Part shown: positions 1 through 4,633 of the stretch, piece after piece
Numbering within the stretch: the stretch's first letter is position 1
Layout: every line of letters starts with the position of its first letter
Virus record (IMG/VR): IMGVR_UViG_2667527914_000002
From: a virus
Taxonomy: Duplodnaviria; Heunggongvirae; Uroviricota; Caudoviricetes
Strand: one strand, 5' to 3'
DNA length: 4,633 nucleotides
Program-made: the position numbers and the translations under genes
Notes under the pieces: generated by a model
What the model saw: only the letters and a program-made list of their open reading frames with translations
The model's database searches: none
What the model was told of the DNA's origin: nothing

Positions 1-82
1 CGAGGTAATCCCCCAGAGAAGTCAGTGGGTTACGCAGAGAATCGTAACGGGATACCAGATCAAGAGCCTGTCCAATGTGCAT
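1..82 (-). CDS. insG: IS4 transposase, N-terminal 27 codons only (rest of gene lies beyond window start)
   Basis: ATG at 82-80 (minus) followed by MHIGQALDLVSRYDSLRNPLTSLGDYL, open to the window edge. This matches my recollection of the E. coli IS4 transposase InsG N-terminus. Absent from the ORF track because it is truncated by the window. Confidence 0.75.
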   Translation of the reverse strand, partial: MHIGQALDLVSRYDSLRNPLTSLGDYL

Positions 83-116
83 AAAAAAATCCGGAAACAA
101 GTGAGCGTTTCCGGAT
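83..116 (-). terminator. Intrinsic-terminator-like hairpin plus T-tract inside the IS4 end, immediately upstream of the transposase ATG
   Basis: Perfect 10-bp stem (plus-strand 89-98 atccggaaac and 107-116 gtttccggat) with an 8-nt loop. On the minus strand it is followed by TTTTTTT (89-83) and then the transposase ATG at 82. Confidence 0.5.
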
Positions 117-148
117 TCTTACACAGCCACTGGATCGGTCAACTGATC

Positions 149-166
149 CTTAACTGATCGGCATTA
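149..166. repeat. IS4 terminal inverted repeat (outer end at 166)
   Basis: 18 bp TAATGCCGATCAGTTAAG on the minus strand at the element boundary. Three GATC sites cluster at 133-136, 145-148 and 156-159 in and next to the repeat. Confidence 0.65.
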
Positions 167-1306
167 CACCACCGGGACGCGGATTCATATCTTCCAGGTC
201 GCGGCAGTCATTGGAAGAGTAAATTCCCCAGTTGATCCCGGTGGCGTAGGCTTCAAAACGGGACTTCATATCCCCGCGCAGTAACGCCCCGGCGTTAAAT
301 TTGGCGTAATAAACGCCCTGCTTACTTTTTCGTACCAGTCCGGTGTTGATCCGCTGTTCGATGCGGGTCAGATACGGCACCAGTGAATAGTTGATAAATC
401 CCAGCCCCAGCTCTTCGATATTGTTGAAGGTGGCGCGATCGGTGTTCTGCACCATGTGCAACGGCACCCGGAACAGACGACAGATTTCTTCCAGCTGAAA
501 CTTGCGGGTTTCCAGGAACTGACTGTCCTCGGCGTTCAGCGCCATCGACTTCCAGTCCAGCCCCATTTCCAGAATCATCGGGCGGTGAGCATTGCCAAGC
601 CCCGTGTGACACTCCTCAAAATCTTTCTTCAGACGCTCGTAAGCATCCGGCGTGAGCTTTTGTTCCGTACGCAACACACCGGATGTCACCGCACCATTAC
701 TAAACAACCTGGCACCGTGCTCCTCGGTTGCCGCTGCCAGTGAAATGGCCTCACGCGCATACGCAATGGGATTCAGCCCGACAAGTCCATCCAGCGTCAG
801 GGTGCGCACATGCCAGATTTCATTCTGGGTCAACACATCCACGGAACCATCCGGAAACGTCACCTGATAAACCGGCTGCCACTGGCTGTTCAGCTTCGGT
901 TCCACACAGCCCGGATCTATCGGAAGAAGCTCCACCACTTCTCCCAGTGCCTTTACCTTGTAGGCGTAAAAATTCCCCCGTAGACACAGGCAGACAATAA
1001 CCAGCTCCCAGAATTCCTGCGGTGTCATGTAGCCATTAGGTTTTGCCGAAACCAACTTATGCAGTCGTTCATCCACCGCCCGTGTTTTCAGGGTACCGCT
1101 GATTTTGTAGAGACTGCAGGGCAGCATACCAACAGACTCTGCCAGCACCCTGACGCAAGAATAGACCGCCGTCAGGCGCATGGCCCGCTGGCTACTGATC
1201 CGCTTTCCGGTATAGGTGTCGTATGACAGCCCGATAGCATCAGCAGTTCTGCTGGCGTGGTCACCGGCACATCGCTTTTTCGTTGAAATAATCCCGAAAA
1301 GAACAC
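150..1306 (-). pseudogene. Phage portal protein, HK97 family; apparently disrupted by an N-terminal frameshift and by IS4 insertion at the 3' end
   Basis: The 415-aa ORF (150..1397) contains portal-like conserved segments (RLTAVYSCVRVLAESVGMLP near the N-terminus, NDCRDLEDMNPRPGG near the C-terminus). Its frame has no credible start after the upstream ORF's stop. A GTG at 1306-1304 with GGAGGT 5 nt upstream opens a different frame encoding a portal-like N-terminus ([22 protein letters not shown]...) that stops at 1172. The last 5 codons (VMPIS) and stop at 150-152 are encoded by IS4 sequence. Confidence 0.75.
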
Positions 1307-1488
1307 TATTTACCTCCGCCGACAGACTGCCGTGTACGGTCGAGATATCGCGCCACCAGCCACGACCAGAACAGGCACAGCGCCCCGGCAACAACAAAAC
1401 CCGCCGGGGGATAAATCAGCCAGGCACCATACGCCAGCAAAAGCGCACCCAGCACGCCCACCAGAGGCGCGAGAATCAGCATGATCAT
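1306..1488 (-). CDS. Hypothetical small membrane protein (60 aa, two predicted transmembrane helices)
   Basis: ATG at 1488-1486 with GAGGT 5 nt upstream, starting 11 nt after the TerL stop. Its stop TAG (1308-1306) overlaps the portal GTG start (TAGTG). Sequence [60 protein letters not shown] has two hydrophobic stretches and a basic C-terminal tail. No homolog recognised. Confidence 0.55.
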
Positions 1489-1499
1489 AATTACCTCAG

Positions 1500-3233
1500 T
1501 TAAAGCGAGCGGATCCCGTAGGACTCAATGTGGTCAGACAGCGTGTCTTCTTTCTCGTACAGCATGGCTCTGCCAACCGCCATAATCAGCGCAACTGCAC
1601 CATCGATTTTGTTTTCCGCCTGCTCTTTGACGGGTTTCACCACATCATCGTTACCCGGCATGTTTTTGCCGACCACGTTGCCGATACACCAGGTCATGAT
1701 GGGATTGCCGTCATGATGAAAACGTCCCGATTCAATCGCTGCTTCCAGCTCTTTCATCGGATCGGACATATTGGTGAAGTTCTGGACGATAGTGACGGGA
1801 TTCAGGTCTTCATCAGCAAGGTCATGTGACAACCCGGTCGCCCCGAAGGGGTCGATGGGTGACTCACTGACCGGGCTGATTTTGTTCGCCGCTTTGGCCT
1901 CCTCGAGGATGTAGCGATAATCCACCTCCGCACCATCGGTAACGGTCAGAACGCCCATTTCCACCCATTTCTGAAAGCGTTCGGCTGTCCGTCGATCTTC
2001 ATTTTTCTCGACGCTGTACACCGTGTCATACGGTACCCAGAAACGCGGGGCCACACTGTAGTAATGCGTTTTACCGTCAATCTCGCGGGTATAAAGTCGC
2101 GCCATGCTGTTCATATCCAGCTTACGCGCCAGGTCAAAGGCCAGAATGCACGGCTGCCCCTCGAACTGCTCAAGGGTCAGTGATTTATCCTCGCAGCTCT
2201 GCCAGCTCACCAAGTTGAAATACGCCGAACGCGCCGACACCCAGATATTGAGGTGTTTTGTTTTAAAGACGTTTGCCAGACGGGCGTTATTTTTCGCACG
2301 CTGCTGCTGACTTAACAAAAATTCGCGATAAACCGACACGCCAATATTTGGATTGGCTTTTTCCAGCACCTGCGGGCCGGTCCAGTCGTCACCTTCATCA
2401 ACGGTATAGATGATCCCGAACAGTTCATCGTTAGGCACCGAGCCGTTGAGCATCTCGATGACTTCCCGCCGCTTGTCGTAGCACGGCCCCTCAATGTTGT
2501 ACCCGGCGGTGGTGATGGCCCACATCAGTGGCTGACGTCGCGCCCCCATCCCGGTAAGCATTGTGGTATAAAGCGCATCGGTGGCATGCTCGTGATATTC
2601 ATCAACCACGGCACAGTGGGGTGATGAACCATCACCTGGGTTGCCGATCAGCGGTTCAAACCGCGCGCCATCCTCCGGACGGTTCATGTTTGAGGCGTTA
2701 ACCTCAATCCCGAACGCTTCCGTCAGCATGGGTGTGCGTTTACACATCAGTCGCGCCGGGCGAAAGACTTCCCACGCCTGTTTCTCTGTCGTGGCACCGG
2801 AATACACTTCCGCGCCAAACTCGTTATCACAGGCAAAACAATACAGGGCAACACCGGCAGAGATTGCTGATTTGCCGTTCTTACGGGGGATTTCGGTGTA
2901 CACCTCCCGGAAGCGGCGCAACCGGGTGCCTTTATTGACCCAGCCAAACGCACAGCAGATCACAAATAGCTGCCACGGCTCCAGCGTGATGGGCATCCGT
3001 TTGAATGCCCACTCCCCCTTGGTGTGCGGCAACAGCTGAATAAATTTCGCGGCCCGTTCAGCCAGGTCCTTGTCGAAGCGGTAACGAAACGACTTACTTT
3101 TTTCCGCCATCAGGTCATCAAGATGGCGCTGGCAGGCCTGAATCACAAACTGGCAGGCAACAATCTTTCCGCGCACGACATCCCGGGCATACTGATTTGC
3201 AGCATTTACGTTGGGGTAAGATTTCCGGCTCAT
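1500..3233 (-). CDS. terL: Phage terminase large subunit (577 aa)
   Basis: ATG at 3233, TAA at 1502-1500. N-terminal ATPase domain with a Walker A-like P-loop (IPRKNGKS) and Walker B (CAVVDEYHE). C-terminal nuclease domain with acidic motifs ([22 protein letters not shown]). Size and motif order fit terminase large subunits. Confidence 0.92.
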
Positions 3234-3724
3234 GATTCGATAATTTTCAGAAACGGGTTAGTGGCTTTCTTCTGCCCCGCCAGGCCAATCAGACGCTGGC
3301 GGCTGCTGGGGTCGAGTCCGAGCATTGCCCCCGTGCTGCTCATCTCGGACTCCTGTTCTTTTTTGGCGGTCAGCTCCGGATTTTTGACCCTGCCGCCCAT
3401 TGCACCGGTGATGGTGTTGCCCTGTATGGCAATATTTTTCACGGCACGTCGCCAGAACTCATAGGCCACGCACCACCGCTCAAGTACCGCCAGGTCAGTC
3501 ACGCACAGCAGGCCCTGACCGCAGAGTTCTTTGGTTGTCAGTTGCCACATGATCGTGGCGAGAGGGAGATCTTCTTCAGCGAACCACTCTGGTGGCTCAA
3601 CACCTTTGATGGGCGTAAAAACAGGTTCATCTTTGTTCAGGGCTCGCTTGCCGGGGTTTCCGGCCAGCGCCTTGCGCGCCGTTGGCTTGGGGCGACGCCC
3701 GGAACGCCCCGCCGTTCCAGCCAT
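3230..3724 (-). CDS. terS: Phage terminase small subunit, P27 family (164 aa from ATG 3724; alternative GTG start at 3733)
   Basis: N-terminus [34 protein letters not shown] matches the P27-family TerS signature as I recall it. AGGAG lies 8 nt upstream of the ATG at 3724. Stop TGA (3232-3230) overlaps the TerL ATG (ATGA). Confidence 0.85.
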
Positions 3725-3763
3725 ATGCGGCACTCCTGGTTAAATTTCATTTTTCGCGGGTAT

Positions 3764-3823
3764 AAAAAAACGATGGGGCGGGCAGTCCGGAAGACGTCAG
3801 GTCACAGGGATTTGCCCCGCCCC
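3764..3823. other. Candidate cos / packaging-recognition region: GC-rich imperfect inverted repeat with adjacent A/T run
   Basis: Arms ggggcgggca (3775-3784) and tgccccgcccc (3813-3823) flank a 28-nt spacer containing the palindromes tccgga and gacgtc. A7 run at 3764-3770. It sits in the HNH-terS intergenic region (3725-3845), where cos lies in HNH-containing HK97-like phages. Confidence 0.35.
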
Positions 3824-3845
3824 TCCCTACAAGTGAGAATAATTA

Positions 3846-4196
3846 TCACCGGATTCGTTCGCGCGCTGTTTTCGCTTTATGGCAGGGCCAGCACAGACTC
3901 TGCAGGTTGCTGTCTGCGTCTGTTCCGCCATGCGCTTTCGGGATGATGTGGTCGACGGTTTTCGCCTCGCTCACCACACCGACACGCAGACACAACTGAC
4001 ACAGACCTTTATCGCGCTTCAGAATACGGGCACGAATCACCGTCCATTTTGAGCCATAGCCACGCTGGTGGCGGCTCAGTCCGCGCTGGTGCTGCACCCA
4101 GCCTTCACCGCGATGTTTATCGCAGTAACCCGAACTGTCTGTGGTTGTACCTGCACATCCACGCTTACGGCAGGCACGTGGGATTAGTGATGGCAT
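3846..4196 (-). CDS. HNH endonuclease, phage packaging-associated (116 aa)
   Basis: ATG at 4196 with GAGGT 4 nt upstream. Cys-rich N-terminus (CRKRGCAG...GYCDKH), HNH-type motif VDHIIPKAHGG, then N...CWPCH. Position immediately upstream of terS is typical for cos-phage HNH proteins. Confidence 0.88.
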   Translation of the reverse strand: MPSLIPRACRKRGCAGTTTDSSGYCDKHRGEGWVQHQRGLSRHQRGYGSKWTVIRARILKRDKGLCQLCLRVGVVSEAKTVDHIIPKAHGGTDADSNLQSLCWPCHKAKTARERIR

Positions 4197-4238: not shown

Positions 4239-4633
4239 CTACTTAATGCACTGAGTGCGGATATACTCCTGTGCCCCTTCCAGTTGCATCTGCATCGTCA
4301 TCAGCCGCTCTCTGAGGGTGAAATAATCCCGTTCAGCGGTGTCTGCCAGTCGGGGGCTGGTTGCATTATCCACGCCGGAGGCGGTGGTGGCTTCACGCAC
4401 TGACTGACAGACTGCTTTGATGTGCAACCGACGACGACCAGCGGCAACATCAGCGCGCAGAGTTTCATTTTCAGCTTTCGCATCAGCTAACTCCTTCGTG
4501 TATTTAGCATCGAGTGCATTAACATCACGCTGTCTCTGCTGCATGTCAGTAATGGTTGCGTTCGCCAGCTTCAGTTCTCTTGCGTTTTTGTCGCGCTGCT
4601 CTTTGTAGGTAATGGCGTTATCACGGTAATGAT
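4239..4633 (-). CDS. Rz: Rz i-spanin (inner-membrane spanin subunit), 5'-partial; start lies beyond the window end
   Basis: Frame is open to the window edge. Translation [110 protein letters not shown]... is near-identical to phage lambda Rz as I recall it. Stop TAG at 4241-4239. Confidence 0.93.
4301..4483 (-). CDS. Rz1: Rz1 o-spanin (outer-membrane lipoprotein spanin subunit), embedded out of frame within Rz
   Basis: ATG at 4483 with AGGAG 7 nt upstream. [60 protein letters not shown] has a lipobox (VVGC, Cys20) and a proline-rich mature part, near-identical to lambda Rz1. Wholly inside Rz in a different frame. Confidence 0.93.

What the first reader, a model, noticed from the sequence alone, without database searches (positions are those of the whole stretch)
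1..1306. IS4 inserted into the prophage portal gene
The portal reading frame runs uninterrupted to position 167, then crosses into sequence I recognise as the IS4 left end; its final 5 codons and stop are IS-encoded. The junction falls just after the conserved C-terminal-region motif (NDCRDLEDMNPRPGG), so the natural portal C-terminus and the head genes downstream are displaced by at least the IS4 body. Without an intact portal the prophage cannot assemble procapsids, which is a clear route to a cryptic prophage. The transposase is oriented the same way as the late operon.
Basis: partly seen in the sequence, partly recalled or inferred. Interest (0 to 1): 0.75.

Follow-up and report, generated by a model that had tools for sequence, protein, structure and literature searches.

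The report
IS4-cut portal in Shigella prophage remnant
The insertion sequence IS4 has cut off the end of a phage portal gene in a decayed prophage found in many Shigella sonnei genomes; this is real, but it is an ordinary, already sequenced case of insertion-sequence-driven genome decay.

Summary
Window 1-166 is the left end of IS4, 100% identical to IS4 copies in E. coli. Homology to intact HK97-type portal genes starts exactly at base 167. The portal gene (minus strand) loses its last 33 codons and ends in IS-encoded VMPIS-stop. The window is 100% identical to Shigella sonnei chromosomes, and the truncated product is already in databases as "portal protein [Shigella sonnei]".

- A 1-bp deletion at portal codon 22 (between 1244 and 1243) separates the native start at 1306 from the long ORF, so the gene is broken twice.
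- In all nine complete genomes examined, the far end of this IS4 is not followed by a target repeat or the rest of the portal. It abuts housekeeping DNA, either bamE or raiA, at sites where E. coli carries simple IS4 insertions. The IS4 is therefore a recombinant copy, and the head and tail genes are gone from the locus.

The predicted reciprocal junction does exist in one S. sonnei-like draft contig: IS4 right end, a 12-bp repeat GTCCCGGTGGTG, then the 33 missing codons. So the original event was a true insertion. This is a known phenomenon of low interest.

The parts
1..166 (-). Left end of IS4. It contains the terminal inverted repeat (149-166), a promoter-like site (142-115), a strong hairpin followed by a U-run (about 86-121 and 83-89), and the first 27 codons of the transposase insG (ATG at 82-80, running off the window at base 1).
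   Evidence: 100% identity to annotated IS4/insG over bases 1-166. Translation gives MHIGQALDLV.... Fold energy is -33.7 kcal/mol, z = -4.6. Promoter-like site. Full copies are 1426 bp with 16 of 18 matching terminal repeat bases.
150..166 (-). IS4-encoded tail of the truncated portal ORF: two bases of the V codon, then M-P-I-S and the TAA stop (150-152).
   Evidence: Read directly from the sequence and the ORF list.
167..178 (.). The 12-bp target sequence CACCACCGGGAC (GTCCCGGTGGTG on the gene strand) that IS4 duplicated on insertion. Only this one copy is in the window.
   Evidence: The same 12-mer directly follows the IS4 right end in L018, followed by the missing portal codons. It occurs once, uninterrupted, in the intact SfII portal.
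167..1306 (-). Portal pseudogene of the HK97 family. The native GTG start is at 1306-1304. There is a -1 frameshift at codon 22. The gene is cut after residue 380 of 413 (...NPRPGG).
   Evidence: Pfam PF04860 at E=3e-107, with profile positions 2-321 of 321 all present. 93-95% DNA identity to the portals of SfII, SfIV and E. coli A36, each 413 aa. HK97 portal structure 8CEZ matches at E=7e-52.
1243..1244 (-). Site of the 1-bp deletion. The window reads CTG-CT where intact homologues read CTG GCG. The native start therefore reads 44 aa and stops at 1172-1174.
   Evidence: Alignments to L001, L012 and L013. The same sequence is present in all S. sonnei-type loci.
1306..1488 (-). Small membrane protein of 60 aa (YmfR-like) between terL and the portal gene. 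It appears intact.
   Evidence: Annotated ymfR or membrane protein in homologues. Matches phrog_502 at E=3e-28.
1500..3233 (-). Terminase large subunit, 577 aa, full length.
   Evidence: Pfam TerL_ATPase and TerL_nuclease. Same length as SfII TerL. The exact protein is named terminase large subunit [Shigella sonnei].
3230..3733 (-). Terminase small subunit (P27/Terminase_4 type). It is 164 aa from the start at 3724 or 167 aa from 3733.
   Evidence: Pfam PF05119. Gene calls use both starts.
3770..3835 (.). Probable cos region between the HNH and terS genes, containing the inverted repeat GGGGCGGG/CCCGCCCC.
   Evidence: The linear genome ends of SfII, SfIV and SfI map to about window 3773-3833. 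Inverted repeat. That this is a cos site is an inference.
3846..4196 (-). HNH endonuclease, 116 aa, belonging to the HK97-type packaging module.
   Evidence: Pfam HNH at E=2e-16.
4239..4633 (-). 3' part of the lysis gene Rz, whose start lies beyond the window end. The embedded Rz1 lipoprotein ORF is at 4301-4483.
   Evidence: Pfam Phage_lysis at E=2e-45. The full 154-aa gene is present in L002 and others. ORF list.

Best explanation
The window is the late-gene end of a defective lambdoid prophage fixed in Shigella sonnei. Its packaging and portal module is closest to Shigella phages SfII and SfIV.

Step 1 (shown). IS4 transposed into the portal gene between codons 380 and 381. It duplicated 12 bp (GTCCCGGTGGTG), replaced the last 33 residues with VMPIS-stop, and separated the portal from the overlapping prohead-protease gene and everything downstream.

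Step 2 (inferred from the structures). This IS4 copy then recombined with other IS4 copies resident at the bamD/raiA and bamE/yfjF terminators. In present-day complete genomes its left end still touches the portal. Its right end carries the flank of one of those older insertions. The head and tail genes are no longer adjacent: they were either deleted or moved.

The 17.1-kb raiA-bamE block next to the IS4 occurs in both orientations among strains. This implies an inverted IS4 pair that flips the block.

Other independent lesions:
- a 1-bp deletion at portal codon 22;
- an IS2-like element inside the IS4 in Ss046-type strains;
- a second IS2-like element truncating the DnaB-like replication gene at the other end of the remnant.

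The result is a roughly 10-kb remnant bounded by insertion sequences. It runs from the DnaB-like gene through RusA, Q, Ant, holin, lysozyme, Rz, HNH, terS, terL and ymfR to the portal gene, and it cannot make virions.
For: Source organism: the window is 100% identical to six complete chromosomes, including CP000038.1. The 343-aa truncated product ending in VMPIS is named portal protein [Shigella sonnei] and is seen on at least 1000 contigs.

IS4 and junction: identity and position. Intact portals are 413 aa, and 33 residues are lost.

Reciprocal junction: found in L018 with the 12-bp repeat and the missing codons. A tail protein encoded on L018 is named [Shigella sonnei].

Far end of the IS4: in 9 complete genomes the right-hand flank is GCTCATTGAGCAC (45 bp past the bamE stop) or CAGCCCTTGAGCTG (24 bp past the bamD stop). 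There is no second copy of the 12-mer or of the portal 3' end within 10 kb.

Older resident IS4 copies: the same two right-end junctions occur in E. coli as simple IS4 insertions with their own target repeats. The bamE site is occupied in 3 genomes and the raiA site in 337.

Inverted block: on the K-12 map, raiA and bamE are the two ends of a single 17.1-kb block.

Other lesions: the frameshift; the IS2-like element inside IS4 with a 5-bp repeat GTGTC; the left IS2-like copy and the N-terminally truncated DnaB-like gene.

What is missing: related intact prophages carry a long block of head and tail genes after the portal, about 19 kb in E. coli A36.

Background: IS4 is one of five insertion sequences expanded in all Shigella species (PMC7373316), and IS-driven rearrangement in Shigella is documented (PMC8072062).
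Against: - L018 is an odd draft scaffold. It holds an uninterrupted portal 3' end, then a single N, then an IS4 lacking its first bases, then the reciprocal junction. The two portal 3' copies differ at only 3 bases and then become identical. The genes downstream of the reciprocal junction may therefore be a collapsed assembly of two prophages.
- L018 differs from the window at 3 of 2442 aligned bases, so it is a close relative, not the same genome.
- I could not search a whole S. sonnei chromosome. Whether the distal half was deleted or moved elsewhere is therefore undetermined.
- The partner IS4 at the other end of the raiA-bamE block was not seen, because the loci end before it.
- The order of the frameshift, the insertion and the recombination is unknown.
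Confidence: 0.85

Rival explanations
1. One reading: a simple IS4 insertion is still in place in the source genome. The other IS4 end lies 1.43 kb to the left and is followed by the target repeat, the 33 remaining portal codons and an otherwise complete head and tail module.
For: L018 shows that such a reciprocal junction exists in at least one S. sonnei-like genome. The window holds only 166 bp of IS4, so its own far end is unseen.
Against: All 9 complete chromosomes carrying the junction, 6 of them 100% identical to the window, have bamE or raiA DNA after the IS4 and no repeat. L018 differs from the window by 3 substitutions. Its tail tube protein is seen on only 3 contigs, against at least 1000 for the truncated portal.
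Confidence: 0.08
2. IS4 never inserted into the portal. An IS4 resident next to bamE or raiA produced the junction by an IS-mediated adjacent deletion or inversion that reached into the prophage, so no target duplication was ever made.
For: The right-end flanks are those of pre-existing IS4 insertion sites seen in E. coli. The portal target is not a terminator-like palindrome, unlike those two sites.
Against: The reciprocal junction in L018 carries an exact 12-bp repeat of window 167-178 followed by the missing codons. That is the signature of a simple insertion. From my own knowledge, IS4-family transposases act by cut-and-paste, and adjacent deletions are typical of replicative elements.
Confidence: 0.05
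3. The junction or the frameshift is an assembly or sequencing artefact, for example a contig falsely joined at a repeat or a homopolymer error.
For: IS elements commonly break or mis-join draft assemblies. One draft contig (L011) ends 5 bases before the junction.
Against: An identical junction and frameshift occur in 9 complete chromosomes from different projects and in 5 IMG/VR contigs. The deletion is not in a homopolymer run.
Confidence: 0.01

Closest known systems
IS4 of E. coli (insG), as simple insertions at the bamD-raiA and bamE-yfjF intergenic terminators
   Same: The 166 bp in the window are identical. Full copies are 1426 bp with 16 of 18 matching terminal repeat bases and a 442-aa DDE transposase. 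Target duplications are about one helix turn long: 11 bp at the bamE site, an imperfect repeat of about 14 bp at the raiA site, and 12 bp at the portal. The family-level figure is from PMC2266710.
   Different: In S. sonnei the two flanks of this copy come from different insertion sites: the portal on the left, and bamE or raiA on the right. It is therefore a recombinant copy without matching repeats. In Ss046-type strains it also carries an IS2-like element inside it.
Packaging and portal module of Shigella flexneri serotype-converting phages SfII, SfIV and SfI, and of related E. coli prophages
   Same: The gene order is the same: HNH, cos, terS, terL, ymfR-like gene, portal. DNA identity is 94-95% across terS, terL and the portal. 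TerL is full length at 577 aa.
   Different: The functional phages have a 413-aa portal followed by the protease, capsid, connector and tail genes. Here the portal is frameshifted and truncated at residue 380, and none of the downstream genes is present. The lysis and early regions are not SfII-like, because the match stops near the cos region.
HK97 portal protein gp3 (PDB 8CEZ, 8FQL)
   Same: Clear homology (E=7e-52). The PGGDV motif where IS4 cut aligns with HK97 residues 397-402 of 424. The Pfam Phage_portal domain is complete upstream of the cut.
   Different: The gene here is a pseudogene with no in-frame native start. The lost 33 residues form a variable, charged tail that differs between close homologues.
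IS-driven pseudogenisation and rearrangement in Shigella (Hawkey et al. 2020, PMC7373316; Seferbekova et al. 2021, PMC8072062)
   Same: IS4 and IS2 are among the five insertion sequences expanded in all Shigella species. Insertions inactivate genes, and IS copies act as inversion and deletion breakpoints, as seen here.
   Different: Nothing differs in kind. This is one specific locus of that general process. I found no paper describing this particular junction.

Membership tests
IS4 (the E. coli element; IS4 family) | Nucleotide identity to the reference IS4 end, including the terminal inverted repeat | tested here: met
   Window 1-166 is 100% identical to annotated IS4/insG. 1574 records match at >=99%, and the match ends at base 166.
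IS4 (the E. coli element; IS4 family) | Element of about 1.4 kb with imperfect 18-bp terminal inverted repeats | tested here: met
   Not testable inside the window. In L005 the element starting at this junction is 1426 bp, with 16 of 18 repeat bases matching.
IS4 (the E. coli element; IS4 family) | Single DDE transposase ORF (Pfam Nterm_IS4 and DDE_Tnp_1) | tested here: met
   The window encodes the first 27 residues. The same ORF is 442 aa with both Pfam families in L005 and L006.
IS4 (the E. coli element; IS4 family) | Target-site duplication of about one helix turn (10-13 bp) flanking the element | tested here: inconclusive
   A 12-bp repeat of window 167-178 follows the IS4 right end in L018. 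It is absent in the 9 complete genomes that match the window, whose right flank belongs to another IS4 site. The original insertion therefore meets the criterion, but the present copy does not.
HK97-family phage portal protein (PF04860) | Significant match to the family profile above the curated cut-off | tested here: met
   358.8 bits against a cut-off of 39.1, covering profile positions 2-321 of 321. phrog_12 portal at E=2e-135. HK97 portal 8CEZ at E=7e-52.
HK97-family phage portal protein (PF04860) | Intact gene: native start and native stop in one frame | tested here: not met
   A -1 frameshift at codon 22 and loss of the last 33 codons, compared with 413-aa homologues. It is a pseudogene of this family.
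Defective (cryptic) prophage | Loss or inactivation of genes essential for virion production | tested here: met
   No protease, capsid, connector or tail genes lie within 10 kb after the portal in 9 complete genomes. The portal is broken twice. The DnaB-like gene lacks its N-terminal third and sits next to an IS2-like element.
Defective (cryptic) prophage | Failure to produce phage on induction | not testable with these tools
   This needs an induction experiment.

The most novel reading that the evidence does not exclude
The surviving module (HNH, cos, terS, terL) is fully intact. It could still cut and package DNA into capsids supplied by a co-resident HK97-type prophage. L018 hints that some strains carry a second, intact relative. 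In that case the remnant would act as a cos-dependent transduction origin for the adjacent, IS4-flanked 17-kb block of housekeeping genes (raiA through ffh, rpsP-rplS and grpE to bamE). The intact ORFs are equally explained by the recency of decay in a young clone, and nothing here tests activity.
Probability: 0.03. Interest if true: 0.45.

Novelty: already known. Interest (0 to 1): 0.1.

Why it matters
It matters little beyond bookkeeping. The locus is a clean, stepwise example of how Shigella prophages decay: insertion by IS4, then IS-IS recombination that strips the structural genes, plus a point frameshift and nested IS elements. The junction appears fixed in the S. sonnei genomes examined (all 9 complete chromosomes; the truncated product is on at least 1000 contigs), so it could serve as a lineage marker. 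The flanking block differs in orientation between strains, which matters when interpreting assemblies. It reveals no new biology of IS4, of portals or of prophage domestication.

Tried and rejected
- Exact-pattern scans for the window junction and for the predicted reciprocal junction in genome contigs found nothing. A scan for the reciprocal junction in metagenome contigs also found nothing. These are uninformative, because S. sonnei probably has no separate representative genome in those collections.
- No E. coli complete genome carries the portal-IS4 junction. The event was seen only in S. sonnei; other Shigella species are not in the collections searched.
- I tried to reach the S. sonnei chromosomal context of the distal half through proteins encoded on L018. 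The 90%-identity cluster representative of the capsid protein (P0001) led only to unrelated intact E. coli prophages with lambda-like tails.
- Cluster look-ups gave only indirect prevalence figures. The L018 tail tube protein is on 3 contigs. The L018 228-aa protease is on 43 contigs, the longest 4.83 Mb. The truncated portal is on at least 1000 contigs. These do not settle deletion versus relocation.
- The Rfam and tRNA scans of the window found nothing relevant.
- The simple terminator scan did not list the IS4 leader hairpin. Folding did show it.
- I considered and rejected the idea that the C-terminal cut alone kills the portal. The Pfam domain is complete, and the lost tail is variable between homologues. 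The frameshift and the missing downstream genes are the decisive defects.

Full report
**What is in the window**

All genes lie on the minus strand. From right to left they are:
- the 3' part of Rz, with Rz1 embedded in it;
- an HNH endonuclease;
- a short non-coding stretch;
- the terminase small subunit;
- the terminase large subunit (577 aa);
- a 60-aa membrane protein;
- a portal ORF;
- 166 bases that are not phage DNA.

These assignments rest on the sequence and ORF list and on Pfam hits. The portal ORF hits Phage_portal at E=3e-107, covering profile positions 2-321 of 321. This is the packaging module of an HK97-type lambdoid phage.

**Check of the observation**

Window 1-166 matches IS4 at 100% over its whole length. 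2634 E. coli records match it, 1574 of them at >=99%. The matches are annotated insG / IS4 family transposase and stop at base 166.

On the minus strand, 82..2 translates to MHIGQALDLVSRYDSLRNPLTSLGDYL. This is the start of the 442-aa transposase that carries Pfam Nterm_IS4 and DDE_Tnp_1 in full-length copies.

Matches of 1-1400 to E. coli genomes begin at 167 (or at 169 or 181) and lie under annotated phage portal protein genes. No E. coli complete genome spans the junction.

Reading the sequence directly, the V codon at 165-167 straddles the junction, MPIS is at 153-164, and the stop is at 150-152.

**How much of the portal is lost**

Intact homologues are 413 aa. I compared E. coli A36 (L001), Shigella phage SfII (L012) and phage vB_EcoM-720R4 (L013). 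After ...NPRPGG they continue DVYLTPMNMTT..., for 33 more residues.

The gene's 3' end overlaps the start of the prohead-protease gene. The HK97 portal structure 8CEZ aligns through this motif: PGGDV corresponds to HK97 residues 397-402 of 424.

The lost tail is variable between close homologues and lies beyond the Pfam domain. The C-terminal cut by itself is therefore not obviously lethal to the protein.

The start used by intact homologues is the GTG at 1306-1304, which overlaps the stop of the upstream 60-aa gene. That start is not in the frame of ORF 150..1397.

Compared with SfII, 720R4 and A36, the window lacks one G between 1244 and 1243 (CTG-CT instead of CTG GCG), at codon 22. From the native start the gene reads 44 aa and stops at 1172.

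Every listed E. coli hit spans one more base than the window over the aligned region. The deletion is present in all ten S. sonnei-type loci examined. It is not in a homopolymer run.

**Source organism**

The TerL protein is encoded, residue for residue, on contigs in 4305 blocks of the assembly collection. Six complete chromosomes, including CP000038.1, contain the whole window at 100% identity. From my own knowledge, CP000038.1 is Shigella sonnei Ss046.

The 343-aa product that gene callers derive from the broken gene, ending in ...GGVMPIS, is in the databases as portal protein [Shigella sonnei] on at least 1000 contigs. All named members of its cluster are S. sonnei.

The junction is therefore common in S. 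sonnei and present in every genome examined here. It has been public since the first S. sonnei genome was sequenced.

**What lies beyond the IS4**

Loci with 10-kb flanks from nine complete chromosomes show two configurations.

- Configuration a (Ss046 and most others). The IS4 carries an IS3-family, IS2-like element inserted with a 5-bp repeat GTGTC. The IS4 right end is followed by GCTCATTGAGCAC..., then bamE, recN, nadK and grpE.
- Configuration b (L005-L007). The IS4 is an intact 1426-bp copy. It is followed by CAGCCCTTGAGCTG..., then raiA, pheL, pheA, tyrA and aroF.

Neither flank repeats the portal target. Neither the 12-mer nor the portal 3' end recurs anywhere in these loci.

On the K-12 map the two flanks start 45 bp past the bamE stop and 24 bp past the bamD stop. 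These are the two ends of a single 17.1-kb block running from raiA to bamE.

Exactly these two IS4 right-end junctions occur in E. coli as ordinary IS4 insertions:
- The bamE site is occupied in 3 genomes, with an 11-bp repeat GCTCATTGAGC.
- The raiA site is occupied in 337 genomes, with an imperfect repeat of about 14 bp.

The two E. coli copies have their right ends facing the block, so they are in inverted orientation relative to each other.

My reading is that S. sonnei holds an inverted IS4 pair around the raiA-bamE block, and that recombination within the pair flips the block. The copy adjacent to the portal is a recombinant. Its left end comes from a portal insertion and its right end from one of the older resident copies. 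This step is an inference, because the partner copy lies beyond the loci I could fetch.

**Was there ever a simple insertion?**

Yes. I scanned IMG/VR for the IS4 right end followed by the expected repeat and found one contig, L018. It reads ...CTTAACTGACTGGCATTA | GTCCCGGTGGTG | ATGTCTATCTCACACCGATG... That is IS4, then a 12-bp repeat of window 167-178, then exactly the 33 missing codons (PGG DVYLTPMNMTTKPSDGSKAGKQKDNANADETTS stop). The protease, major capsid protein, connectors and a lambda-like tail module follow.

The tail tube protein of L018 is named [Shigella sonnei] and is seen on only 3 contigs.

The same 12-mer occurs once, uninterrupted, in the intact SfII portal. The repeat is 12 bp, one base shorter than the 13-bp candidate. 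It is consistent with IS4-family duplications of about one helix turn (PMC2266710).

There is a caveat. L018 is a scaffold. Its first 2.4 kb are 99.9% identical to the window and carry the same frameshift. That part runs through the insertion site without IS4 and on into the protease gene. Then comes a single N, then an IS4 lacking its first bases, then the reciprocal junction.

The two copies of the portal 3' end differ at 3 bases and then become identical. That genome probably holds two related prophages that the assembler partly collapsed. The junction itself is solid. The linkage of the downstream genes to the junction is less certain.

**State of the rest of the prophage**

Related intact prophages have a long block of head and tail genes after the portal, about 19 kb in E. 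coli A36. None of it is present at the S. sonnei locus.

At the other end of the remnant, a second IS2-like copy abuts a DnaB-like helicase gene that lacks roughly the first 150 positions of its family profile.

The remnant is about 10 kb, is bounded by insertion sequences, and retains apparently intact Q, lysis, HNH, terS and terL genes. It is a defective prophage for several independent reasons. The IS4 cut is one of them, and probably not the most damaging one.

**Comparison with what is known**

IS4 is one of five insertion sequences (IS1, IS2, IS4, IS600, IS911) expanded in all Shigella species and responsible for widespread gene loss (PMC7373316). IS-mediated inversions and rearrangements in Shigella are well documented (PMC8072062).

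The closest phages are the S. flexneri serotype-converting phages SfII, SfIV and SfI, at 94-95% identity over terS, terL and the portal.

Nothing here departs from known IS4 behaviour or known portal biology.

**Verdict**

Novelty: already known. Interest: about 0.1.

Whether the distal half of the prophage was deleted or relocated in mainstream S. sonnei remains open.

Noticed in passing
window 83-142 (minus strand): Inside the IS4 left end, a 14-bp-stem hairpin followed by seven U residues sits immediately before the insG AUG (fold energy -33.7 kcal/mol, z = -4.6). A sigma-70-like site (TTGACC, 16-nt spacer, AAGAAT with an upstream TG) overlaps the hairpin's 5' arm. Read-through transcripts from the phage late operon would contain the whole hairpin, whereas transcripts from the IS4 promoter might not. 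This could shield the transposase from outside transcription. That is speculation.
   Followed up: partly
window 3770-3835: The linear genome ends of phages SfII, SfIV and SfI map into this HNH-terS intergenic stretch. It holds the inverted repeat GGGGCGGG ... CCCGCCCC and is probably the cos site of the remnant.
   Followed up: partly
L009 14190-15521 (inside the IS4, outside the window): In Ss046-type genomes an IS2-like (IS3-family) element is nested in the IS4 with a 5-bp repeat GTGTC. E. coli strains CFS3313 and Ec1115 match the query spanning both IS4/IS2-like junctions in one piece at 97.7% identity. The composite therefore either predates S. sonnei or marks an insertion hotspot.
   Followed up: partly
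L009 15830 onward; L005 14494 onward; L015 3908-20992: The 17.1-kb raiA-bamE block, which includes ffh, rpsP-rimM-trmD-rplS and grpE, adjoins this IS4 in opposite orientations in different complete S. sonnei genomes. Among the contigs read, roughly 21 have bamE next to the IS4 and 4 have raiA. This implies inversion between two IS4 copies.
   Followed up: partly
L016 1225-2650; L017 1225-2650: In E. coli, IS4 sits in the loops of two terminator-like palindromes. The one downstream of bamD is occupied in 337 complete genomes, and the one between bamE and yfjF in 3. The portal target does not look like these palindromes.
   Followed up: partly
L018 2431-2860: The IMG/VR scaffold joins an uninterrupted portal-protease stretch, through a single N, to an IS4 that starts inside its leader hairpin with the loop inverted. 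This looks like a contig-end fold-back combined with collapse of two related prophages.
   Followed up: partly
L003 1769-3101 and 3205-4596: A second IS2-like copy, inverted relative to the one nested in the IS4, bounds the remnant on the early-gene side. It lies next to a DnaB-like helicase gene that lacks its N-terminal part.
   Followed up: partly
L006 (CP044191.1): One complete genome carries the same junction, frameshift and raiA configuration but differs from the window by 45 substitutions and 7 gaps over 4.6 kb (98.9% identity). Either it belongs to a more divergent lineage or this remnant has recombined with another prophage. I did not establish its organism.
   Followed up: no
window 3724-3733: Different annotations give the terS start as 3724 (164 aa) or 3733 (167 aa).
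   Followed up: no
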